This document shows positions 51,084 to 64,000 of a DNA stretch of 64,000 nucleotides, piece after piece. The stretch comes from an uncultured Hyphomicrobiales bacterium. Lineage in GTDB: Bacteria; Bacteroidota; Ignavibacteria; Kapaibacteriales; UBA2268. A model generated the notes under the pieces. It was not told where the DNA came from and ran no database searches. It worked only from the letters and a program-made list of their open reading frames with translations. Both the position numbers and the translations under genes were made by a program. Numbering within the stretch: position 1 is the stretch's first letter; each line of letters opens with the position of its first letter. The stretch covers positions 17,816 through 81,815 of the forward strand of contig CAZSHX010000008.1 in the NCBI GenBank assembly GCA_964606895.1, read 5' to 3'.

Positions 51084-52235
51084 TTAAAACATGTGACATT
51101 TTTCAAGATTCATTTCGCATTTCGAGTAAAACTGAGGAATCTGCAAACTACGTGCGGCAACCTCAATAACAAATGCTTTTAGTTCACGGTTGTCTTCTTC
51201 AAGTTTAAGGATTACGGGTTTTTGGCCGCAAGAAAAATTCTTGAATAAGGTTCTTGCCGGAACCTGCATATAAACACTCATTCTGCTGAAGCCGAAATCC
51301 AATGTTTCCAGCATCCATTTTGTAATCCAACCATTTACAAGCGGAGTTGGGTCGTCCTTTAGCATGTGGAATTTTTCGAATCTGACCTGGAATGCAGAAA
51401 CTAAACCTTCAATTCTTATTTTCGGACGATTTTCGATTCTTTCTTTTATTCTTCGGATAAATTGGTCTGCATTTGAGTTGAGAACATCTTTCAATCTCAT
51501 ATCATAATTTTGTTTCAGGTAACTATTCAAAGTTTGGTCTTTCAAACCTTCATAAGCCTTCAAAGAATCGTTTATAAGCTTATGATTAATGGGGAATCTA
51601 TCCAAACAGCAAGTGATTTCTTTGTCCCTGAAAGCTCTATGGTAATAAATACGAATAGTAGATTCAGGATATATTTTGCCAACGGCTTCGTCAATGTGCT
51701 TCGAACCGTTTGTCATGAAAGTCTGGCAAGCGATATTTCTAGTGTTCATTCGAGTGAGCAATTCATCCCAAACTCTGATTTCATCTTTGGGTCCAATCTG
51801 ATAACCCAGGACAACCGTCGAGAGTGCGTCAATTGCCATGGCAAGAAACATCGTATTCGAAGTTGAGCCGGAACCTTTGCATGAACATGAAAAATTTCGA
51901 CCAACCAGATATACCAGCTTAGGTTCGTGCTTTGCAATATTAATATCCAGATATTCTTCCCAATTTGGGCACCCATCAAGAAATTCTCTGATTTTCTGAT
52001 TAATTCTTAGTGGCGAACTATGGTAGAAACCAACTAAGTCTCTGCAAGTTTTACCATTCAGATATTCCTCGACAATATATGACAAGTCAGGTTTGGAGGA
52101 TTCCATTTTTTCATGAACCCATGTTTTCCCACAGGTTCTACAGCGATAACGCTTATTGCCTGTCGTAGTCTTACCATGGCGGATAACTTTAGTACTCTTA
52201 CAAAATATACAAGCCTGTCGAATTTCATCATTCAT
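51084..52235 (-). CDS. IS1-like transposase-related protein (InsA-type zinc ribbon + degenerate InsB-like core), probably immobile
   Basis: The N-terminal ribbon is CIFCKSTKVIRHGKTTTGNKRYRCRTCGKTW. The central segment FMTNGSKHIDEAV aligns by eye with IS1 InsB WMTDGWPLYE but has D->N. No terminal inverted repeats are seen, and the gene sits 13 nt from the OsmC gene. Confidence 0.4.
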   Translation of the reverse strand: MNDEIRQACIFCKSTKVIRHGKTTTGNKRYRCRTCGKTWVHEKMESSKPDLSYIVEEYLNGKTCRDLVGFYHSSPLRINQKIREFLDGCPNWEEYLDINIAKHEPKLVYLVGRNFSCSCKGSGSTSNTMFLAMAIDALSTVVLGYQIGPKDEIRVWDELLTRMNTRNIACQTFMTNGSKHIDEAVGKIYPESTIRIYYHRAFRDKEITCCLDRFPINHKLINDSLKAYEGLKDQTLNSYLKQNYDMRLKDVLNSNADQFIRRIKERIENRPKIRIEGLVSAFQVRFEKFHMLKDDPTPLVNGWITKWMLETLDFGFSRMSVYMQVPARTLFKNFSCGQKPVILKLEEDNRELKAFVIEVAARSLQIPQFYSKCEMNLEKCHMF

Positions 52236-52487
52236 TAGATAATCCTAAAAATAAATATAGAATAAGCAAAAAACAAAATATGTACAAAATAAATATATTA
52301 AAAATTAATTAAAAAAAAACATATTTTTTTCAAAATCGTAAAATATTTTTTTGAATGTTGTTCTCGAAGGATTTTTACATTTTGGCAAACTATATATTTA
52401 ATGGCGACTTATAAATAATAATTGTAATAAGTCAATTAAAATGATTAATTTGCAGGAGTAATGATTGAATTTTTTTAGAAATGATTG

Positions 52488-52559
52488 TGACCCCAACGGG
52501 ATTCGAACCCGTACTGCCACCGTGAAAGGGTGGTGACCTATCCATTAGTCGATGGGGCC
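52488..52559 (-). tRNA. tRNA-Glu (anticodon UUC), no encoded CCA
   Basis: The minus strand reads GGCCCCATCGACTAATGGATAGGTCACCACCCTTTCACGGTGGCAGTACGGGTTCGAATCCCGTTGGGGTCA. It folds by hand into a 7-bp acceptor stem, 4-bp D stem, 5-bp anticodon stem with loop CTTTCAC, 4-nt variable loop, and T arm ACGGG/TTCGAAT/CCCGT. Confidence 0.9.
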
Positions 52560-56870: not shown

Positions 56871-58046
56871 TTAGTCTTTAACACAACGAACTGAAAACCC
56901 GTAGCCCTTACTACTTCCATACCTGCCGACGACGGCGTGATCGCAGTCCAAGCTCTGAGCCCACGCATACGTCGCATCGAGCTCAGTGGACGACCACCAA
57001 ACACCGTAGCCCCCTATGTCGCTAAATGTTATCCCACCATAGTCACGACATCCCCCGGGAAGGGCGGAAAAGTTGCTTGAGTTTGTCGCACCTGTGTTTG
57101 GACTTCTCCAGTGGCTCGTTCCTGTCTCTTTCATCTTTCCTCCAGCAACACTTCTACCACCTAGAAATGTTGTTAGAGCTGTACATTCTGCATCAGATGG
57201 CACCAGCCAGCCAATTGGTGCCAAGCCTCTCGGATCATTTACTGCATACCAATTATAAAGTTTACCGTAGATTTTCCCATTTGCAGGGTCGTTGTTGTAA
57301 TAGCACCATGCTCCAGTTGTTAGATTTGCCCATGCTGTGGCATCTTTTACTTCAGGTATTGAGTCGCCATTACGGTAGTGGTCAACATTAAGGTTTTTAA
57401 GCATCCATACCTGAGTGCCGATTGTTACCATTTCAGCAGTTTCTGGTGGAGTTATTATGAATTCTACTTCATTACTTTTTACTCCATTTACAGTTACGTA
57501 AACTTTTCCGCTTGTTGCTCCAGTTGGCACTTTTACTTTGATGTCTGTGTCGCTCCAACTTGAATATTCTGTAGCTTTTGTACCGTTAAATGAAACAGAG
57601 CTTATTGTTTGACTTGCTCCAAATCCACTGCCATAGATAGTCACAACATCACCTATTCTTGCTGACGTTGGTGTTATACTGGTTACTTGAAATGTTTTCA
57701 CAGGATCTACAGTAAAATCCACTTCATTGCTTTTAACTCCATTTACAGTAATGTAAACTTTTCCGCTACTTGCTCCTGTCGGTACTTTGGCTTTTATTTG
57801 TGTATCATTCCAACTTGTGTAAATGGTCGCTTGTGTATTATTGAATGATACGTAACTTGTATTTTGAATGTCACCAAAATTAATACCTGATATGGAAACA
57901 ATATCCCCGATACTTGCTGAGGTTGGGGTAATAGATGTAATTTTAAATGTACTACTTGTATCAGGCGTATCTGTAGTATTATTCTTACTACAGCTAAACA
58001 AAATAGATAATGCAATGATTAATAATAACAAAATTCTGATTCTCAT
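56871..58046 (-). CDS. Lipoprotein with two IPT/TIG-like domains and a Fibrobacter-succinogenes-major-paralogous (FISUMP) domain
   Basis: It has a lipobox (ALSILFSCS). A duplicated ~95-aa unit is present (ITSITPTSA.IGD.V.I.G.GFG......VSFNGT.A...SW.DT.IK.KVPTGA.SGKVY.TVNGVKSNEV.F). The C-terminal signature is VTIGTQVWMLKNLNV...GKLYNWYAV...GW.VPS..E...L...GGKMKE...W......TN.SGFSALPGG.R.......G..G.WWSS. The 3' part is visibly G+C-richer than its surroundings. Confidence 0.8.
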   Translation of the reverse strand: MRIRILLLLIIALSILFSCSKNNTTDTPDTSSTFKITSITPTSASIGDIVSISGINFGDIQNTSYVSFNNTQATIYTSWNDTQIKAKVPTGASSGKVYITVNGVKSNEVDFTVDPVKTFQVTSITPTSARIGDVVTIYGSGFGASQTISSVSFNGTKATEYSSWSDTDIKVKVPTGATSGKVYVTVNGVKSNEVEFIITPPETAEMVTIGTQVWMLKNLNVDHYRNGDSIPEVKDATAWANLTTGAWCYYNNDPANGKIYGKLYNWYAVNDPRGLAPIGWLVPSDAECTALTTFLGGRSVAGGKMKETGTSHWRSPNTGATNSSNFSALPGGCRDYGGITFSDIGGYGVWWSSTELDATYAWAQSLDCDHAVVGRYGSSKGYGFSVRCVKD

Positions 58047-58739
58047 GATAATAACCTTTTAGTTTTACATTTGATTCAACATACAAATCTAATAACTTAT
58101 ATTCAATATATTACAAAAAAAATCATACTTGCATAGTTGTCGGACAGCGGACAAAAATCAGTCTTTGCAACTTACTAATTAACAACCACTTACAAGCGAG
58201 CTAAATTCTGTCCTGTCCGACTGTTTAACACAATGATATTTAACCAACCTAATTAACTAATTATTCATCAGAAAGGAGAACCTTTATGGACGAGCAAATT
58301 GTCCTGAAAGACAAAGCAATTCAGATACTGCCTGAATCTATTATTGAGCAGTTCAGAGCAGAAGAGCAAGACCGACGAAACGAGCAAACTTCAAAGGATA
58401 TATAGTTCGGCAACGACCTGGCAAGCAAGGGCAAACTTGGGATTATATCACAGGCTTGACGCTATGCGATGGCTTGACAGTATTATCCAAGAAGGATTAG
58501 TCAAACATGTCAATCAGACTATATTGACTATCCGCAAATCTTTCGCATCTCCATCCAAATTTATAGGGTGGAGGTGTTGGAGAGGGGGAAAATCGTATAA
58601 AACAAAAAATGCCAGCAAATCTGCCAGCATTTAGTTTGTGACTGTCCTAAGTGCCTTTATTGTAAGGTTAATAGGCTTTAGTAAAGTGGGCCCTGAGGGA
58701 CTATTGGATTCCTATATATTTCAATGCCTTATGTTACTA

Positions 58740-58985
58740 CTATTTTATTTTTGCCAAATTATTAGCCAAATTAGTGTTTTTTCTATGCTTTTTATCCAAA
58801 ACAATCAAGCTGAGAAAAGCAAAATGTTTTCCTAAACTATAAACAATAAAAAATACACCACTATCATAATGGTCGTTATTCAAAGATAATTGCTCGTTAT
58901 TTAGAGCTTGACCTTCAAATACGTCAATAACCGCTTTGATTGCGTCTAATTGGTACTCTTGATTAGGGCCGAAATTAAGTTTCAT
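58740..58985 (-). pseudogene. 5' stub of a type III restriction Res (helicase-nuclease) gene; only about the first 30-45 codons look native
   Basis: The N-terminus MKLNFGPNQEYQLDAIKAVIDVFEGQ matches the conserved start I know from type III Res subunits (MKLxFxxxxxYQxxAIxxVVDxFxGQ). The remainder is low-complexity, and the ORF ends after 81 aa versus about 900-1000 aa expected. No further minus-strand ORF lies downstream. The start overlaps the upstream stop as ATGA. Confidence 0.5.
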
Positions 58986-60214
58986 TGGATAACACTTCTT
59001 AAATTTTGTGGTATAGAAGGTACACCTACTCTACCCATATAAGATAAATATCTTTGCCTAAGTTGTTGAATATAAGGGCTATTTATTTTTAATACTCTCT
59101 TTTTCTTATTAGTGTCTAAAAAGTGACCACCTTTTAGTTTTAATGAAAACCTGAAATCAATTAATGCTGTTTGCCTATCAGATTCACTAAATGCAAATAT
59201 AGGTAGTAAATGTAGAGCAGATATTTCTTGATTATACGCCCGAATTATTTCTTCATTTGTTTTACAAAAATCATTGATAGTTTTAAAACTCTTTTTAGTA
59301 AAGCAGAGTAATTCAACCTTTTCATTCCTTTTAATAAGTTTAGACAAATCACATTCAGGAGAAATTACAATTCCAAAATTCTCTTTACTGAGTTGATAAA
59401 TATCTCCAGTCATAATTGAATCAGTTTCTTGGGGCTTAGAATAATAGAGTTTAGAATATAAATTGAGAATTTCATTTGTTTCAGTTATGCTTTTAAAATT
59501 TGCTACCGAGTAATCACTAATTGACTTTTTTAGTGATGTCTCTTGTATCAGTCTTTCGGAAATTAGATTCTGAAATAATGTAATAACTTCAATTGTAGGA
59601 TCAAGTTCAATAACAGTCGGTTCACCTGTTGTTTTATTGAATTTTCTTACAGAGCTATAAAAAAGTTCTTTAATCCAATATTTATCAGCCTGTTCTAATT
59701 CTGAGAATATTGATTGTGAAGCTTGGTTAATTGTCTGACTCCAAATGAAAGGTACATTCAAATGCTTATTTTTATCTTCAAAGGAATTAATACCATCAAT
59801 AATTTTCTTATATTCTTTATCTGATTCGTTCATGTTCCCTTTAATTTCAAAAAATATTTTATCATTATACAAAGACTGTAATTCCTCCTTTATTTCTTGA
59901 GCAATCTCATTCATTGAATACAAATAGACAAGGGAAAATATTTTCTGAGATTTTAAAAACTGAAACGGATTTTCATCAGGTATGTCTATGAAATTTTCAT
60001 CATCGTCATGTTCTTCAACTTTCCGTTCAAAATTCCAATCAAGAATCAAAGCTTTTATAGTTGACATTGAAGCGACTGCTTTTTCAAGGGTACTTAGATT
60101 GTTTATTGGTAAAATAGAAAAATTAACATCAGAATTAAATTTCTGAAAAAGTTTATTTTCTTCTCTATCAGTATCAAAAATATGATCATCGGCAAATAGT
60201 ATTATTCCTTCCAT
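58982..60214 (-). CDS. Receiver (REC)-like domain protein with an uncharacterised ~270-aa C-terminal domain
   Basis: The start is taken at ATG 60214, with AGGAG 7 nt upstream and 1 nt after the upstream TAA; the ORF-track start at 60277 would overlap by 62 nt. The REC-like pattern is GIILFADD (D9,D10), ALILDW (D59), LVYLYS (S100) and FFEIKG (K125). The C-terminal domain (e.g. GDIYQLSKENFGIVISPECDLSK, INSPYIQQLRQRYLSYMGRVGVP) is not recognised. Confidence 0.55.
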   Translation of the reverse strand: MEGIILFADDHIFDTDREENKLFQKFNSDVNFSILPINNLSTLEKAVASMSTIKALILDWNFERKVEEHDDDENFIDIPDENPFQFLKSQKIFSLVYLYSMNEIAQEIKEELQSLYNDKIFFEIKGNMNESDKEYKKIIDGINSFEDKNKHLNVPFIWSQTINQASQSIFSELEQADKYWIKELFYSSVRKFNKTTGEPTVIELDPTIEVITLFQNLISERLIQETSLKKSISDYSVANFKSITETNEILNLYSKLYYSKPQETDSIMTGDIYQLSKENFGIVISPECDLSKLIKRNEKVELLCFTKKSFKTINDFCKTNEEIIRAYNQEISALHLLPIFAFSESDRQTALIDFRFSLKLKGGHFLDTNKKKRVLKINSPYIQQLRQRYLSYMGRVGVPSIPQNLRSVIQ

Positions 60215-60215
60215 T

Positions 60216-62447
60216 TTATTGCTCCTGATTAAATTTAACAATGAAATTAGCACCAGGGAGTAGTCCTTCTTGTCCATTCTGAACTACCGAAATTTCTCCA
60301 TTAATTCGGAGAAGTATTTCTTTAACGATGTAAAGTCCTAAGCCTCGACCATCTAATTTTAAAGAAAAGAACTCATTATAAATCATCGGAATTACATCTT
60401 CACGGATGCCGGGTCCGTTGTCTGCAATAATTATTGAGCTACTTTTACTATTAAGTTTAAATATAATTTCTTTATCTTTGGATTGATTTTTGTTTACCCA
60501 ATAAACAGCATTATCCAGTAGGTTTATCAAAATTTGCAGGATAAGACCGGTATTGGTTTTAATAATAACATCCTCATCTTTTAATATTTTTACAGTAATT
60601 TTTCCATCTATATCACGCCTGAAATATTTGATAACTTTTTCAATACTTTCATAAACACTTACATCCTTTATTGCTTTACGTTGGTTTTTAAATAGCGGTT
60701 GAATTACTTGCATTTCGTCATATACAAAATTTAGATTTTCATCTAATTCACTCAGCAGTGAAATTAAATCTGTATTAGTAAAATCATGATTCTTTGCTTT
60801 AACTCTAAAGTCTTTTACATTATTTCTCATTTTTGAAAGAAGGGTGAGAGCATCATGCGAAGCTTTTTCTACAGCCATTCCAAGACCAGCTAAATCTTCA
60901 ACTATTTCCATCCTGTCTTTCATCATTATGTTATGTTTTTTTACAGTGTTAAGGAACTTGTTTGCTTTTTCAAGTACTTCCCTGTTGTCTATCTTCTCAA
61001 GACTTGATTTTAAGGAGTTGAATGATTTCTCAACAATATCGACAGAATCACTAAATGATTTCTCTTTTAAAATATTAGCTTTATTTTCGTCAATCTTCTT
61101 TTCTGTATTTAATACTTGCGTAACCAAAGTAACAAGTTTCTTGAAATCCTCATATGCTCCATCAATATTCATCATCCCTTGACGATTGGTTGAGTCTTTC
61201 AATAATGGATTTTCATTTTGCCCCTGTCCAATATAAACAAAACCAGTTAAATCATTATAACTAATATAATCTCCAGCACGTACTCTTGCCCTTAATTTAT
61301 CTAATTCAAGCCAATCATAACCAGGTTCCCCGAAAGGATAAACTCTCACACCATCTCGAAATAAATATACAAAGTTTTGCTTAATAAATTGTTCAATCTC
61401 TTTTGTTAATATGGTTTTATCCCTATTTTTCAAATTAAAAGCATAAAATGAGAATTTAAAATATCCACAAATTGGCTTTCGGTTAAATTCAGTAAACCAA
61501 TCTTTGGTTGTCTGTGATGGATATTGATATTTACTTAGAGATTCTATGCTTAGCAAATCAATTTCTCTGTTTTTAATTTCTCTATAAGGTGCAGTAGATT
61601 TATAAGTGAATTTCAAAATTCCTTCTGCAGTGACTTCACCAATCATCGTAAATTGAGCTCTTTCGATTACATCACTGAAAGTGATAATGTCTTCAGGAGC
61701 ATATTCTTTTTTATTAACAAACATTTTTACAATGAAATCTTGCTTAAAATCTATTTCAAGTGTCTTTGCATTTTCATCTTTTGGAGGTATTAATCGTTGA
61801 ATAGATTTAAACAACTCCTTGAAATCATTAGAATTCCAATTCTCCCTCATGTTGTATATCCTGATCAACGTTCCTTTTTCTTTTTTGATTTCTTCGGGTG
61901 GATTATTTACAAACCAGCTATTGCTAACATCTTCAAGTAACTTGTATTCTTCTGGTGGTTGATTGAACAAATCAGCCTTCTCTGGATTGTATTCAGTATA
62001 ATCCATTTCGAGTCTAATTTCGTTGTTGTTGATTGCTTTTGTATAAAGTCCTATTTTCTCACCCAGCTTATGAATAGCAAATCTACCAATTCCTTTTTCA
62101 CCCTGAATAATTCTACCTTTTACTGTAATATTCTTCTTTTGTTTTCTTTTATCTAATTTTACTGGTGTTGCAGGTCTAAGCCAAACATTAGTGATAGTTT
62201 CTAATGTCATACCATCACCATCATCTTCAACTTCGATAAACGGCTGTTCTTTCTCAGTTAAATAATTCTTTCCATAATTATCCATATTACAAAATCGTAC
62301 TTGTACATTTTCTGCATCAGCATCATAACAATTTTTTAAAATTTCTATAATTGCTACTTTTTTATCAGTAATCAACTGATCACCAATAATATTTATCAAC
62401 CGTGCATAAGGCTTAAATGGTTGACTATTTTGATTAATTATTGCCAT
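60216..62447 (-). CDS. Dual GHKL protein: N-terminal MORC/Hsp90-type ATPase (HATPase_c_3-like) fused to a C-terminal histidine-kinase DHp + CA module
   Basis: The N-terminal Bergerat-fold motifs are EILKNCYDADA (N-box), EDDGDGMT (G1) and GEKGIGRFAIHKLG (G2). The C-terminal part has an H-box-like LGMAVEKASHDALTLL (His531, codon 60857-60855), N-box LINLLDNAVYW, G1 ADNGPGI and G2 DGRGLGLYIV. No TM segments. Confidence 0.7.
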   Translation of the reverse strand: MAIINQNSQPFKPYARLINIIGDQLITDKKVAIIEILKNCYDADAENVQVRFCNMDNYGKNYLTEKEQPFIEVEDDGDGMTLETITNVWLRPATPVKLDKRKQKKNITVKGRIIQGEKGIGRFAIHKLGEKIGLYTKAINNNEIRLEMDYTEYNPEKADLFNQPPEEYKLLEDVSNSWFVNNPPEEIKKEKGTLIRIYNMRENWNSNDFKELFKSIQRLIPPKDENAKTLEIDFKQDFIVKMFVNKKEYAPEDIITFSDVIERAQFTMIGEVTAEGILKFTYKSTAPYREIKNREIDLLSIESLSKYQYPSQTTKDWFTEFNRKPICGYFKFSFYAFNLKNRDKTILTKEIEQFIKQNFVYLFRDGVRVYPFGEPGYDWLELDKLRARVRAGDYISYNDLTGFVYIGQGQNENPLLKDSTNRQGMMNIDGAYEDFKKLVTLVTQVLNTEKKIDENKANILKEKSFSDSVDIVEKSFNSLKSSLEKIDNREVLEKANKFLNTVKKHNIMMKDRMEIVEDLAGLGMAVEKASHDALTLLSKMRNNVKDFRVKAKNHDFTNTDLISLLSELDENLNFVYDEMQVIQPLFKNQRKAIKDVSVYESIEKVIKYFRRDIDGKITVKILKDEDVIIKTNTGLILQILINLLDNAVYWVNKNQSKDKEIIFKLNSKSSSIIIADNGPGIREDVIPMIYNEFFSLKLDGRGLGLYIVKEILLRINGEISVVQNGQEGLLPGANFIVKFNQEQ

Positions 62448-63708
62448 GTTTCACCTTCTTTGCTATTAAAATGTATTCTTCAGGATAAACAAGTTTACTA
62501 TCTTTATTATCTAATTTGGAGAATTTTCCTGTTTTTTTGTCTCTAATAGTCGGTATTAACTTATTCGGGATACTTCTTTTTATAATTTCTATCATTTCAA
62601 ATCCAATAGATGTTAACATTTCGGTAAAAACTTCAGCAGATTTTATTTTAACGTTATTGAAAGTTGTATTACCAATTACTAAACAAATGTGACCATCGTT
62701 CTTTAAAATTCTTTTCATTTCCTTCGCAACAGATTGCATATCATTAAAGTAATTAGCTACTTCTTTAGCTTTTCGTTTATCTTTTTCAGCAAGATTATTT
62801 ACTATTTCTTGTGCTATTCCTGAAAAACAACTTAGTTCTTGATTTAAAGAATAAAAAGTTCCAATAAAGTTTTTTCTAAATTTAGTTAGGTCAGTAATAT
62901 ACTCGTACCAATATGCGGTTAGTTGATGAATATCCGCATATTCATAAGATGTAACATAAGGAGGAGATGTAATAATTGCACTTACGGAATTTGCTCTTAT
63001 TGATGTTTTTCGAGCATCCTCCAATCTGATTTCACATTTTGTTTTAAAGAATTTCTGTGTTACCAGTTGGTTATAAAATTCTGAGTTCTTTTTTATCATC
63101 TGTTTTGAATGTGCAGGAAAAGCTAAAAAAGGATCTGTTGGCACTTTCTTAGGATCAATCTGTGGTTTTGTACTTGATTGCAACCACTTTGAGCAATTTT
63201 TCAATATATGAGACAATGAAACAAGGAAAAATTCCTTAATAGTTTCATCATTTATATCCAAAATTTTATCATAAAGGAAAGCAATTTTAGATTTGTATTC
63301 TTGAGAAAACCAGTAGTCCAATCGGTCGTGAACTGATAAATTAGAATATTTATCTATGTCAAATAATGCGAAGTTATTGACAATCAAGTTAAATTGCTGT
63401 TCTAATTCTTTCGGCTCAATAGGGTTAGTTTTAGCTTTAGTAATAAGCTTTGCAACTGGATTGATATCTACACCAATAGATTTTCTACCATGCACTTTTG
63501 CTTCTACAAGCGTAGTTCCACAACCTGCGAACAAATCGGCAATCAAATCATTCTTTTGAGTATATTCTTCAATTAGCTTTTTTACTAAGTTTGGTAGAAA
63601 TTTAGCTGGGTATCTATGATAACCGTGTGTCCATTGCTCAACAGAACGGACGTTAGTGAAACACCATTCAGGACTTACTTCGATATTTTCAAAATCTCTG
63701 TAAAACAT
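62434..63708 (-). CDS. N6-adenine/N4-cytosine DNA methyltransferase (motif order X-I ... IV)
   Basis: HGYHRYPAKFLP plus DLFAGCGTTLVEAKVHGRKSIGVDINP (AdoMet motif I) lie at the N-terminus. The catalytic motif IV, IITSPPYVTSYEY, is about 180 aa later. An SPPY variant is commonest in N4-cytosine enzymes but not diagnostic. Confidence 0.85.
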   Translation of the reverse strand: MFYRDFENIEVSPEWCFTNVRSVEQWTHGYHRYPAKFLPNLVKKLIEEYTQKNDLIADLFAGCGTTLVEAKVHGRKSIGVDINPVAKLITKAKTNPIEPKELEQQFNLIVNNFALFDIDKYSNLSVHDRLDYWFSQEYKSKIAFLYDKILDINDETIKEFFLVSLSHILKNCSKWLQSSTKPQIDPKKVPTDPFLAFPAHSKQMIKKNSEFYNQLVTQKFFKTKCEIRLEDARKTSIRANSVSAIITSPPYVTSYEYADIHQLTAYWYEYITDLTKFRKNFIGTFYSLNQELSCFSGIAQEIVNNLAEKDKRKAKEVANYFNDMQSVAKEMKRILKNDGHICLVIGNTTFNNVKIKSAEVFTEMLTSIGFEMIEIIKRSIPNKLIPTIRDKKTGKFSKLDNKDSKLVYPEEYILIAKKVKHGNN

Positions 63709-63710
63709 TT

Positions 63711-63941
63711 TTATCCCGTTCTAAAATCCACACCAGCATCCTTGGATTGCTGGATTATGTTTGTTTTTAAATTTCGATAATCATCAAATAACCATAATAT
63801 TAACTTCATATAATTTCGATTAAATAAATTCTCACTGCGACTAGCTCTTAAACCAAGATATTCCAACGTTTCTTTTGATAATTCCCTTGGAAAAAGTTCC
63901 TTCAACTTCTCAATAGTTTTCTCTTTAATAAAAAAAGACAT
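63711..63941 (-). CDS. Small protein of unknown function, first gene of the methyltransferase operon
   Basis: This 76-aa ORF ends 2 nt before the methyltransferase ATG. No motif is recognised, so coding status rests only on position and length. Confidence 0.35.
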   Translation of the reverse strand: MSFFIKEKTIEKLKELFPRELSKETLEYLGLRASRSENLFNRNYMKLILWLFDDYRNLKTNIIQQSKDAGVDFRTG

Positions 63942-64000
63942 ATCATCCTTAATTCACAAACAAATCTATAAAAATAAAAAAAATCAAAATTCAAAAATAC

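What the first reader, a model, noticed from the sequence alone, without database searches (positions are those of the whole stretch)
60216..62447. Single polypeptide with two different GHKL ATPase modules (MORC/Hsp90-type and histidine-kinase-type)
Residues about 30-125 carry the Bergerat-fold motifs of the HATPase_c_3 group (EILKNCYDADA, EDDGDGM, GEKGIGRF). Residues about 515-743 read as a classical kinase core: the H-box-like ASHDALTLL with His531, then LLDNAVYW, DNGPGI and GRGLGLY. About 390 residues with no motif I recognise lie between them. They include RDGVRVYPFGEPGYDWLELD and a predicted coiled region at about aa 440-515. There is no transmembrane or periplasmic sensor. If the protein is a kinase, its input would have to be cytoplasmic, possibly DNA clamped by the MORC-like module. 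I have not seen this fusion described.
Basis: partly seen in the sequence, partly recalled or inferred. Interest (0 to 1): 0.75.

Follow-up and report, generated by a model that had tools for sequence, protein, structure and literature searches.

The report
MORC-like ATPase fused to histidine kinase
The gene really does encode one soluble protein with a MORC/Hsp90-type ATPase fused to a histidine-kinase core, but this fusion was described in 2021 as part of a widespread restriction-modification-linked two-component module, and a relative has since been shown to defend against phage.

Summary
ORF 60216-62447 (-) encodes 743 aa with HATPase_c_3 (aa 30-169) and HATPase_c (aa 636-739). All quoted motifs sit at the stated positions. 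His531 is kept in 96 of 100 diverse homologues and is followed by Asp or Glu in 97. Fold search matches the N-terminal ~500 aa to MORC2/3 and Hsp90, and the C-terminal ~235 aa to HK853/ZraS.

The novelty claim fails. This architecture is "group 1" of the HEF_HK family (Bellieny-Rabelo et al. 2021). It occurs in at least 571 species genomes and on 66 plasmids. The protein is homologous to AbrB of the validated "Ambrosia" defence system (27% identity, E 6e-36).

The gene lies in an operon: N6/N4 DNA methyltransferase, then the kinase, then a 410-aa partner. The partner has a receiver fold with the phospho-acceptor Asp conserved. It also has an unassigned C-terminal domain with a nearly invariant Cys-Asp motif. 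No nuclease gene is present, and a downstream Res-like gene is truncated.

Most likely this is an ATP-driven cytoplasmic sensor kinase that phosphorylates its partner within a methylation-linked defence module. I rate it a new member of a known kind. What remains open is how the system works and what the partner's output domain does.

The parts
62434..63708 (-). DNA methyltransferase of 424 aa (N6_N4_Mtase, type II-like). Motif I is DLFAGCGTT and motif IV is SPPY. Its stop overlaps the kinase start by 14 nt.
   Evidence: Pfam PF01555 E 8.9e-29. PADLOC MTase_II E 7e-61. Junction read. The homologous gene sits in the same position in relatives.
61788..62447 (-). Kinase protein aa 1-220: N-terminal MORC/Hsp90-type GHKL ATP-binding domain. 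Key residues are E35, N39, D42, D75xGxG and G116xxGxG.
   Evidence: HATPase_c_3 E 8e-17. These residues are invariant in 100 diverse homologues. The residue equivalent to N39 (AbrB N40) is required for Ambrosia defence.
61167..61787 (-). Kinase protein aa 221-427: transducer or middle domain of the GHKL module. R364, R368, D378, W379, R422 and G424 are invariant and D365 is in 98 of 100. The TNR(E/Q)G motif resembles the Hsp90 middle-domain Arg motif.
   Evidence: Foldseek aligns about 460-530 columns of the N-terminal half with MORC2/3, TRAP1, GRP94 and Hsp90. Conservation. The Hsp90 motif resemblance rests on my own knowledge.
60903..61166 (-). Kinase protein aa 428-515: long helical stalk (helix 428-486 and the start of helix 489-553) linking the ATPase module to the DHp.
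   Evidence: AlphaFold2 secondary structure.
60693..60902 (-). Kinase protein aa 516-585: DHp helices with the phospho-acceptor His531 (codon 60855-60857), followed by Asp532.
   Evidence: H531 aligns with the H-box His of ZraS. H is present in 96 of 100 homologues and D or E follows in 97 of 100. HEF_HK PF19191 matches aa 522-585 at 15.4 bits, below threshold. Foldseek matches HK853, ZraS and YF1.
60216..60692 (-). Kinase protein aa 586-743 plus stop: catalytic ATP-binding (CA) domain of the histidine kinase. Key residues are N646, D676xGxG and G700xGxG.
   Evidence: HATPase_c E 1.8e-17. Boxes are invariant or nearly so. Sequence matches to PDB kinases.
59771..60214 (-). Partner protein aa 1-148 (numbered from Met at 60214): receiver (REC) fold with acidic pair D9-D10, phospho-acceptor D59 (codon 60038-60040), S100 and K125.
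   Evidence: AlphaFold2 pLDDT 90 with (beta-alpha)5 order. Foldseek matches PorX, NarL, Spo0A and ArcA receivers. Across 74 diverse partners D59 is kept in 97% and K125 in 99%. S100 is invariant in close relatives. The start lies 1 nt after the kinase stop.
59444..59770 (-). Partner protein aa 149-257: helical linker region with one beta-hairpin. It may be a DNA-binding winged helix, but this is unassigned.
   Evidence: Secondary structure only. Weak, non-significant profile matches to TetR/LuxR-type regulators.
58985..59443 (-). Partner protein aa 258-410: conserved C-terminal output domain of unknown fold family. Motifs are G270-D271, P-x-C288-D289 (Cys codon 59351-59353) and R395-x-G397-x-P.
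   Evidence: Across 74 diverse partners C288 is kept in 96%, G270 in 93%, D289 in 89%, G397 in 89% and R395 in 86%. Cys is invariant in a 29-sequence alignment. The domain is present in the Campylobacter plasmid 'response regulator' and the Allorhizobium partner. There is no Pfam, PDB or other-architecture match.
58740..58985 (-). Truncated fifth gene: an 81-aa ORF whose first 38 aa match the N-terminus of type III Res enzymes. Its ATG overlaps the partner's stop (ATGA).
   Evidence: PADLOC REase_III E 5e-6 over positions 1-37 of a 989-position profile. Junction. phmmer hit to a 954-aa ORF near the kinase gene in L072. A terminator-like hairpin lies at 58632-58607.
63711..63941 (-). 76-aa ORF directly upstream of the methyltransferase, in the position where relatives carry an HTH_3 controller protein. 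It is not recognisably an HTH, and its membership of the system is doubtful.
   Evidence: No Pfam, PADLOC, NCBIfam or PHROG match. No similarity to the HTH protein of L090 or to any ORF in the related loci.

Best explanation
The ORF encodes a soluble sensor kinase of the HEF_HK/AbrB family. A complete MORC/Hsp90-type GHKL ATPase (ATP-binding domain plus transducer domain) is joined by a long helical stalk to a class-I-like histidine-kinase core (DHp with His531, then the CA domain). It is the middle gene of a translationally coupled operon: DNA methyltransferase, kinase, receiver-domain partner.

Proposed mechanism: the N-terminal ATPase acts as an ATP-driven cytoplasmic sensor or clamp that responds to an infection-related or DNA-related cue. 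Its conformational cycle passes through the stalk to the DHp. The CA domain phosphorylates His531, and the phosphoryl group moves to Asp59 of the partner's receiver domain. That switches on the partner's output region, the conserved Cys-Asp C-terminal domain and possibly a DNA-binding segment. The whole module works as a methylation-linked anti-phage or anti-plasmid system.

Shown here: domain identities, catalytic-residue conservation in both ATPase modules, the kinase His and the receiver Asp/Lys, operon structure, and conserved gene order across phyla. Shown by others for a homologue: the system defends against phage and needs the N-terminal GHKL Asn and the receiver Asp. Inferred: the nature of the input, actual phosphotransfer in this protein pair, and what the output domain does.
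For: 1. Two GHKL modules score well above Pfam thresholds.
2. Fold matches cover both halves: MORC2/3 and Hsp90 for about 500 N-terminal residues, and HK853/ZraS DHp+CA for about 235 C-terminal residues.
3. In 100 diverse homologues, E35, N39, D42, D75, G77, G79, G116, G119, G121, R364, R368, R422, N646, G678, G702 and G704 are invariant. H531 is kept in 96%, and the next residue is D or E in 97%.
4. The partner is a high-confidence receiver fold. D59 is kept in 97% and K125 in 99% of 74 diverse partners. 15 of 73 partners hit canonical Response_reg.
5. Gene order is conserved. In 77 of 80 loci the ORF immediately downstream belongs to the partner family. A DNA methyltransferase lies immediately upstream in 48 of 79 loci and downstream of the partner in a further 11.
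6. Start and stop codons overlap or abut throughout the operon.
7. The architecture and context were published as the HEF_HK/Response_reg_2 TCS-like system (PMC8011034).
8. AbrB of Ambrosia (747 aa; HATPase_c_3 + HATPase_c) aligns with aa 9-425 at 27% identity, E 6e-36. AbrB N40A (equivalent to N39 here) and AbrC D60A abolish defence.
9. The locus has 30-31% GC against about 37% for the window. The family sits on 66 plasmids, 54 of them conjugative, and next to integrases. This fits a mobile defence module.
Against: 1. No biochemical data exist for this protein or for any member with this type of partner.
2. The Pfam models that define the published family do not reach threshold here. HEF_HK scores 15.4 bits against a cut-off of 24.1, and Response_reg_2 gives no hit.
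3. The validated Ambrosia system differs in three of five components: a different methyltransferase family, a 209-aa receiver protein without the Cys domain, and a separate HNH nuclease. Its activity therefore cannot simply be transferred.
4. No recognisable nuclease is encoded in the window's operon, and the only nuclease-like neighbour is truncated to 81 aa.
5. The controller HTH gene found in relatives is missing, so this copy could be impaired.
6. The DHp region of the monomer model has low confidence, pLDDT 47-80 over aa 510-590.
Confidence: 0.7

Rival explanations
1. This is a purely regulatory two-component system. The kinase and receiver partner only control transcription of the adjacent methyltransferase, and of restriction genes elsewhere. 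The partner is a DNA-binding response regulator, not an effector enzyme. This is the working model proposed for Ambrosia.
For: In Ambrosia, reporter genes replacing abrA or abrD are induced on infection, and AbrC is reported to carry a winged helix. The 2021 paper also proposes a regulatory role. The window partner has a helical segment with a beta-hairpin at aa 150-205 that could be a winged helix.
Against: The partner's roughly 150-aa C-terminal domain has a nearly invariant Cys-Asp and an Arg-x-Gly motif across phyla, which looks more like an active or binding site than a DNA-binding fold. Ambrosia's AbrC lacks this domain and has a separate HNH instead, which suggests the domain substitutes for an effector. 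Many cassettes, including Aquirufa and the Campylobacter plasmids, contain nothing else to regulate apart from the methyltransferase.
Confidence: 0.2
2. This is not a signalling kinase at all. The protein would be the ATP-driven motor or clamp subunit of an unconventional restriction enzyme, like the GHKL-containing BbrUII/HgiDII enzymes or paraMORC3/Shedu. The second GHKL and the receiver-like partner would serve as structural or ATPase modules without His-to-Asp phosphotransfer.
For: The N-terminal 190 residues match the BbrUII/HgiDII restriction-enzyme family model, E 1.5e-15. paraMORC ATPases work with nucleases in R-M systems. The GHKL-nuclease fusion VcSduA is a validated defence protein.
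Against: The phospho-acceptor His and the acidic residue after it are conserved in 96-97% of homologues. The receiver Asp and Lys are conserved in 97-99%. AbrC D60A abolishes Ambrosia defence. The BbrUII/HgiDII match covers only the GHKL domain and scores 56.8 bits against a cut-off of 550.
Confidence: 0.07
3. The copy in this genome is a decaying remnant of a larger defence island, and the kinase gene, although intact, no longer functions in a working system.
For: The ORF coupled to the partner's stop is an 81-aa stump of a Res-type gene. The usual HTH controller gene is absent. An IS-like transposase ORF and a tRNA lie about 6-8 kb away.
Against: The methyltransferase, kinase and partner ORFs are full length with every catalytic residue intact. 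The same three-gene core with an HTH gene stands alone in Aquirufa, where the kinase is 76% identical. The window ends 59 nt beyond the 76-aa ORF, so an HTH gene further upstream cannot be excluded.
Confidence: 0.15

Closest known systems
HEF_HK / Response_reg_2 'two-component-system-like' elements linked to R-M systems and paraMORC ATPases (Bellieny-Rabelo, Pretorius & Moleleki 2021, PMC8011034; Pfam PF19191 and PF19192)
   Same: The architecture is identical: HATPase_c_3 + DHp + HATPase_c ('group 1', 174 of 222). Both are soluble, have an adjacent receiver-like protein of about 400 aa with no other known domain, and have an adjacent DNA methyltransferase. Bacteroidetes members were already included.
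   Different: The window proteins fall below the gathering scores of both Pfam models. The paper emphasises C5 methyltransferases and Vsr, whereas this lineage carries an N6/N4 methyltransferase upstream. The paper is purely computational and does not discuss the partner's C-terminal Cys-Asp domain.
Ambrosia anti-phage system of Pseudomonas aeruginosa (AbrR-AbrA-AbrB-AbrC-AbrD; bioRxiv 10.1101/2025.09.30.679545)
   Same: AbrB is a 747-aa homologue with both GHKL Pfam domains. It is 27% identical over aa 9-425, E 6e-36. The gene order is methyltransferase, kinase, receiver protein. The N-terminal GHKL Asn and the receiver Asp were shown to be needed for defence.
   Different: AbrA is an N6_Mtase/MmeI-type enzyme, not PF01555. 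AbrC is a 209-aa receiver protein that my partner profiles do not detect and that lacks the Cys domain. Ambrosia also has an essential HNH nuclease and an XRE regulator, and neither is present in the window.
paraMORC/MORC GHKL+S5 ATPases of R-M systems (Iyer, Abhiman & Aravind 2008, PMC2292703), including paraMORC3/Shedu VcSduA (PMC12137116)
   Same: All have an N-terminal Bergerat-fold ATPase followed by a transducer domain, sit in an R-M or defence context, and are sporadically distributed on mobile DNA.
   Different: Those proteins couple the ATPase directly to a nuclease (RE-fold, HNH, TIR) or a helicase. Here the ATPase is coupled to a histidine-kinase core, and the output goes through a receiver protein.
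Canonical class I sensor histidine kinases (HK853, ZraS, EnvZ-type HisKA + HATPase_c)
   Same: The DHp has an H-[DE] motif and the N, G1 and G2 boxes are present. Fold matches over about 235 residues have target-normalised TM-scores of 0.52-0.63 (HK853 and ZraS chains). The receiver partner is adjacent.
   Different: There is no transmembrane or PAS/GAF/HAMP input. The sensor position is occupied by a second, catalytically intact GHKL ATPase. The Pfam HisKA model does not match the window protein.
Detocs, a defensive two-component system (Rousset et al., bioRxiv 10.1101/2023.01.24.525353)
   Same: The abstract describes bacterial immune effectors that degrade cellular ATP and dATP on phage infection, and the preprint names Detocs and two-component signalling. 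From my own knowledge, Detocs uses His-Asp phosphotransfer to a receiver-fused effector. I did not read the paper beyond its abstract.
   Different: No PADLOC model matched the kinase beyond one weak hit (PDC-M40C, E 0.0012), and none matched the partner. From my own knowledge, Detocs has a different sensor, a separate buffer protein and a nucleosidase effector, and no methyltransferase.
BbrUII/HgiDII family type II restriction enzymes (NCBIfam NF050001)
   Same: They share the HATPase_c_3-type N-terminal domain (aa 30-218, E 1.5e-15).
   Different: The match covers the GHKL domain only and scores 56.8 bits against a cut-off of 550. The rest of the protein is unrelated.

Membership tests
HEF_HK HK-like family (OG_5, PMC8011034) | N-terminal HATPase_c_3 and C-terminal HATPase_c in one polypeptide ('group 1') | tested here: met
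   61.9 and 64.2 bits, both above the gathering scores. All 60 diverse homologues tested carry both domains.
HEF_HK HK-like family (OG_5, PMC8011034) | DHp helices with a core His followed by Glu or Asp | tested here: met
   The motif is H531-D532. H is present in 96 of 100 homologues and D or E follows in 97 of 100. It aligns with the ZraS H-box and gives a helical hairpin fold match.
HEF_HK HK-like family (OG_5, PMC8011034) | Pfam PF19191 gathering score (24.1 bits) | tested here: not met
   The window protein scores 15.4 bits at aa 522-585. The model appears narrow. Only 3 of 60 homologues reach E<0.01. Burkholderia, Campylobacter and Allorhizobium members give no hit, and A. baumannii scores 18.8 bits.
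HEF_HK HK-like family (OG_5, PMC8011034) | Soluble protein with no transmembrane segment | tested here: met
   The maximum 19-residue Kyte-Doolittle mean is 1.37. This is a crude test.
HEF_HK HK-like family (OG_5, PMC8011034) | An adjacent gene for a receiver-like protein, and an R-M (methyltransferase) neighbourhood | tested here: met
   The arrangement is conserved in 77 of 80 loci, and methyltransferases are adjacent in most loci.
Response_reg_2 RR-like family (OG_4, PF19192) | (beta-alpha)5 receiver fold with acidic pair, phospho-acceptor Asp, Thr/Ser and Lys | tested here: met
   Fold. D9 77%, D10 82%, D59 97% and K125 99%. S100 at the end of strand 4 is invariant in 100 close relatives.
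Response_reg_2 RR-like family (OG_4, PF19192) | Pfam PF19192 match | tested here: not met
   The window partner gives no hit at E<=0.1. Only 2 of 100 close partners and 5 of 73 diverse partners give weak hits, with a best E of 2e-5. 15 of 73 hit canonical Response_reg instead.
Ambrosia defence system | AbrB-type kinase with two GHKL domains | tested here: met
   BLASTP of the first 399 aa of AbrB against the window protein gives 27% identity, E 6e-36, collinear over aa 9-425.
Ambrosia defence system | AbrC-type short receiver protein and a separate AbrD HNH nuclease | tested here: not met
   AbrC (209 aa) is not detected by the partner profiles or by BLAST. There is no HNH ORF in the operon, and HNH is not among the common neighbours in 74 loci.
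Ambrosia defence system | XRE/HipB-like regulator and an AbrA-type N6 methyltransferase | tested here: not met
   The 76-aa upstream ORF is not an HTH. The methyltransferase is PF01555, not N6_Mtase/MmeI-type. Close relatives of the window system do carry an HTH_3 gene.
Ambrosia defence system | Protection against phage | not testable with these tools
   This needs a plaque or efficiency-of-plating assay.
Functional two-component histidine kinase | ATP-binding N, G1 and G2 boxes in the CA domain | tested here: met
   N646 100%, D676 98%, G678 100%, G680 97%, G700 99%, G702 100% and G704 100%.
Functional two-component histidine kinase | Autophosphorylation on His and transfer to the receiver Asp | not testable with these tools
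   A biochemical assay is required. The only indirect support is that AbrC D60A abolishes defence in the homologous system.
MORC/paraMORC GHKL+S5 ATPases | Bergerat-fold motifs plus a following transducer domain | tested here: met
   Motifs. Foldseek alignments of 460-530 columns to MORC2, MORC3, TRAP1 and GRP94 have E about 1e-10 and target-normalised TM-scores of 0.31-0.52.
MORC/paraMORC GHKL+S5 ATPases | Assignment to a specific paraMORC1-5 family or the MORC signature motif | not tested
   No reference sequences for those families were at hand.

The most novel reading that the evidence does not exclude
The partner's C-terminal domain, with its G-D, P-x-C-D and R-x-G-x-P motifs, may be a previously unrecognised effector gated by phosphorylation. 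It could be a nuclease or another DNA-directed enzyme with a catalytic Cys-Asp. If so, the three genes (methyltransferase, MORC-like kinase, receiver-effector) would form a self-contained 'signal-transducing restriction system'. In that system a MORC-type ATP clamp senses foreign or unmodified DNA and licenses the effector by His-to-Asp phosphotransfer instead of by direct protein contact.
Probability: 0.25. Interest if true: 0.7.

Novelty: new member of a known kind. Interest (0 to 1): 0.3.

Why it matters
The fusion itself is not a discovery. It is published, widespread and partly validated as an anti-phage component. Three things remain worth knowing. First, how can an Hsp90/MORC-type ATPase serve as the input domain of a histidine kinase? 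That would be an unusual way of coupling ATP-driven clamping to phosphorelay signalling. Second, what does the nearly universal Cys-Asp output domain of the receiver partner do? No recognisable nuclease accompanies the conserved three-gene core. Third, the current Pfam models (PF19191, PF19192) miss this clade and every other member of the family tested here, so the family is under-annotated in genomes. This Bacteroidota-type cassette is compact, with three or four genes, and would be a convenient model for these questions.

Tried and rejected
1. PADLOC gave no known defence-system model for the kinase (only PDC-M40C, E 0.0012) and none for the partner.
2. PHROGs returned only families of unknown function plus one 'kinase' family.
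3. MADS was considered and rejected. Its 'histidine kinase' is merely a boundary gene of a defence island.
4. VcSduA/paraMORC3-Shedu is a GHKL-nuclease fusion, not a kinase fusion.
5. Attempts to identify the partner's C-terminal domain all failed:
 - Pfam on 100 close and 73 diverse partners.
 - Profile searches against PDB with the whole protein and with the domain alone.
 - Foldseek against PDB and against viral structures, both dominated by receiver-domain hits.
 - A profile search of the 5.8-billion-protein set, which returned only 12 fragments and no new architecture.
6. A canonical PD-(D/E)xK reading of D271...E287-C-D289 was considered and set aside. Position 287 is not conserved, and the conserved pair is the adjacent Cys-Asp.
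8. Three Pseudomonadales loci were checked for an Ambrosia-like HNH gene. Methyltransferases were found instead, plus a PhyH-family dioxygenase upstream in L051.
Full report
**The observation**

The ORF at 60216-62447 on the minus strand is real and encodes 743 aa. Pfam finds HATPase_c_3 at aa 30-169 (E 8e-17) and HATPase_c at aa 636-739 (E 2e-17), both far above the curated cut-offs. It also finds a sub-threshold HEF_HK match at aa 522-585. A sequence search of the PDB aligns aa 508-728 with the cytoplasmic core of ZraS and places His531 on the H-box histidine.

**Structure**

An AlphaFold2 model built on 100 diverse homologues has pLDDT 87.8 and pTM 0.85. Foldseek splits it cleanly.
- The C-terminal ~235 residues match the DHp+CA of HK853, ZraS, YF1 and WalK.
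- The N-terminal ~460-530 residues match the ATPase modules of MORC2, MORC3, TRAP1, GRP94 and Hsp90. That match covers a GHKL domain plus its transducer or middle domain.
- Between the two lie very long helices (428-486 and 489-553). The second helix carries His531.

So the 390 'unassigned' residues are the transducer domain plus a helical stalk. The protein has no likely membrane segment.

**Conservation**

The family is large. There are 801 clusters (at 50% identity) with E<=1e-30, nearly all full length. At least 571 species-representative genomes carry it, across many bacterial phyla and a few archaea. It is also on 66 plasmids, 54 of them conjugative.

In 100 diverse members, conservation is as follows.
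- The ATP-binding and catalytic residues of the N-terminal GHKL are invariant: E35, N39, D42, D75xGxG and G116xxGxG.
- Five middle-domain residues are invariant: R364, R368, D378, W379 and R422.
- His531 is present in 96, and is followed by Asp or Glu in 97.
- In the kinase N, G1 and G2 boxes, N646, G678, G702 and G704 are invariant and D676, G680 and G700 are present in 97-99 of 100.

Both ATPase modules look catalytically competent.

**Operon and partner**

The gene is translationally coupled to its neighbours.
- *Upstream:* a 424-aa N6_N4-type DNA methyltransferase, with a 14-nt overlap.
- *Downstream:* a 410-aa protein whose start lies 1 nt after the kinase stop. It has no database annotation, but its model is confident (pLDDT 90).
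- *Partner N-terminus:* a receiver fold, matching PorX, NarL, Spo0A and ArcA.
- *Family membership:* iterated profile searches place the immediately downstream ORF of 77 of 80 related loci in this one family.
- *Receiver residues:* across 74 diverse members the acidic pair is kept, the phospho-acceptor Asp59 is kept in 97% and Lys125 in 99%. 15 of 73 members hit the canonical Response_reg model.
- *Partner C-terminus:* about 150 residues form a separate conserved domain. Cys288 is nearly invariant (96%), with Asp289, Gly270 and Arg395-x-Gly397. I could not assign this domain to any known family.

**Neighbourhood statistics**

In 79 loci, the gene upstream of the kinase is an N6/N4 methyltransferase in 25, a C5 methyltransferase in 20 and a D12-class enzyme in 3. 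The gene after the partner is a C5 methyltransferase in 9 loci and an N6/N4 enzyme in 2. Vsr, HhH-GPD, ResIII and EcoRII appear occasionally. No separate nuclease is consistently present.

A crude motif-based typing suggests that partner sub-clades track the methyltransferase type. One clade goes with N6/N4 in 20 of 21 loci. Another goes with C5 in 16 of 25 and never with N6/N4. This may simply reflect inheritance of the cassette as a unit.

**Literature**

The fusion is not new. Bellieny-Rabelo, Pretorius and Moleleki (2021, PMC8011034) described exactly this arrangement.
- A soluble HK-like protein with HATPase_c_3 + a new DHp (HEF_HK, PF19191) + HATPase_c. This is 'group 1', 174 of 222 sequences.
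- Linkage of 91.6% to a receiver-like protein (Response_reg_2, PF19192).
- Enrichment next to R-M genes.
- A proposed derivation from paraMORC ATPases.

That work was computational. A 2025 preprint (10.1101/2025.09.30.679545) validated 'Ambrosia' in P. aeruginosa. Ambrosia has an XRE regulator, an N6 methyltransferase, the HATPase/kinase AbrB, the receiver protein AbrC and the HNH nuclease AbrD. All five are required.

Its supplementary table lists AbrB as 747 aa with both GHKL Pfam domains and gives its first 399 residues. These align with aa 9-425 of the window protein at 27% identity, E 6e-36. The inactivating AbrB N40A mutation corresponds to Asn39 here. AbrC D60A also abolishes defence.

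**Differences from Ambrosia**

- AbrC is only 209 aa and lacks the Cys-Asp domain. My partner profiles do not detect it.
- Ambrosia has a separate HNH gene, and the window operon has none.
- The methyltransferases belong to different families.
- The window lacks the HTH controller gene that its own close relatives carry.

The window system is therefore the 'classical' 2021-type cassette. Ambrosia is a variant in which a short receiver protein plus HNH appears to stand where the long receiver-plus-Cys-domain partner stands here. This displacement is my main, indirect reason to suspect that the Cys-Asp domain is an effector.

**Mechanism**

I think the most likely mechanism is this. The N-terminal MORC/Hsp90-type ATPase acts as an ATP-driven sensor or clamp. 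Its cycle is transmitted through the stalk to the DHp. His531 is phosphorylated by the CA domain, the phosphoryl group passes to Asp59 of the partner, and the partner's output region is switched on.

The domain identities, conservation and gene coupling are shown here. The need for the N-terminal ATPase Asn and the receiver Asp is shown only for the homologous Ambrosia system. The input signal, phosphotransfer in this pair and the output activity are all inferred.

Three rivals remain open:
- A purely transcriptional role, as the Ambrosia authors propose.
- A non-signalling motor role, like GHKL restriction enzymes.
- Decay of this particular copy, since the ORF coupled to the partner's stop is an 81-aa stump of a Res-type gene.

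**Verdict**

The structural interpretation is supported. The novelty claim is refuted. This is a new, somewhat divergent member of a known and widespread kind, and it escapes both defining Pfam models. Residual interest lies in the unexplained coupling of a MORC-like ATPase to a kinase and in the unassigned, nearly universal Cys-Asp output domain.

Noticed in passing
window 58740-58985 (-): An 81-aa ORF whose ATG overlaps the partner's stop codon (ATGA). Its first 38 aa match the N-terminus of type III Res enzymes, after which similarity is lost. It looks like the stump of a deleted fifth gene. A terminator-like hairpin follows at 58632-58607.
   Followed up: partly
window 63711-63941 (-): The ORF upstream of the methyltransferase (76 aa) is not the HTH_3 controller protein that relatives carry in this position. 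It has no homologue in about 90 related loci or in any profile library tried. The window ends 59 nt further on.
   Followed up: partly
window 58000-64000: GC content is 0.30-0.31 here, against about 0.37 for the window as a whole. GC skew is strongly negative. This is consistent with horizontally acquired DNA.
   Followed up: no
window 51084-52235 (-) and 52487-52559 (-): A 383-aa ORF with an N-terminal Cys-rich zinc-finger-like segment (IS-type transposase-like by eye) lies next to a tRNA-Glu(TTC) gene, 6-8 kb from the operon. This may mark an integration site or island boundary.
   Followed up: no
window 56871-58046 (-): A 391-aa lipoprotein-like ORF with two near-identical tandem ~95-aa repeats (ITSITPTSA...VNGVKSNEV). 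By eye, its C-terminal domain is of the Fibrobacter/Bacteroidetes 'FISUMP' type. It is unrelated to the finding.
   Followed up: no
[not shown]
   Followed up: partly
L045 3537-7415 (Chthonomonas MAG): Here the gene directly downstream of the kinase homologue is not a receiver protein but a DrmA (DISARM helicase) homologue, E 4e-123 to PDB 7s9v. This links the family to DISARM-type loci.
   Followed up: no
L085 (Campylobacter coli plasmid pCCDM224L) and 40 other Campylobacter plasmids: Conjugative pTet-like plasmids carry a minimal set: the kinase, a 340-aa 'response regulator' with the same Cys-Asp C-terminal domain, and a convergent dcm gene. No nuclease gene is present.
   Followed up: partly
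80 related loci (L004-L083): Partner C-terminal sub-clades co-vary with methyltransferase type. The 'N(I/V)RxxCD' clade goes with N6/N4 enzymes in 20 of 21 loci. The 'LTPxCD' clade goes with C5 enzymes in 16 of 25 and never with N6/N4. Typing was by regular expression only, and phylogenetic non-independence was not controlled.
   Followed up: partly
Pfam PF19191 (HEF_HK) and PF19192 (Response_reg_2): Neither model was shown to reach its gathering score in any family member tested, including Acinetobacter, Burkholderia, Campylobacter and Allorhizobium proteins. The family is therefore largely invisible to routine Pfam annotation, and its members are labelled only 'sensor histidine kinase', 'ATP-binding protein' or 'hypothetical protein'.
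   Followed up: partly
L086 6292-7485 (Burkholderia glumae plasmid): The partner homologue here begins without an obvious acidic pair or receiver-like N-terminus by eye, yet keeps the C-terminal 'ACD' motif. It may be a degenerate receiver.
   Followed up: no
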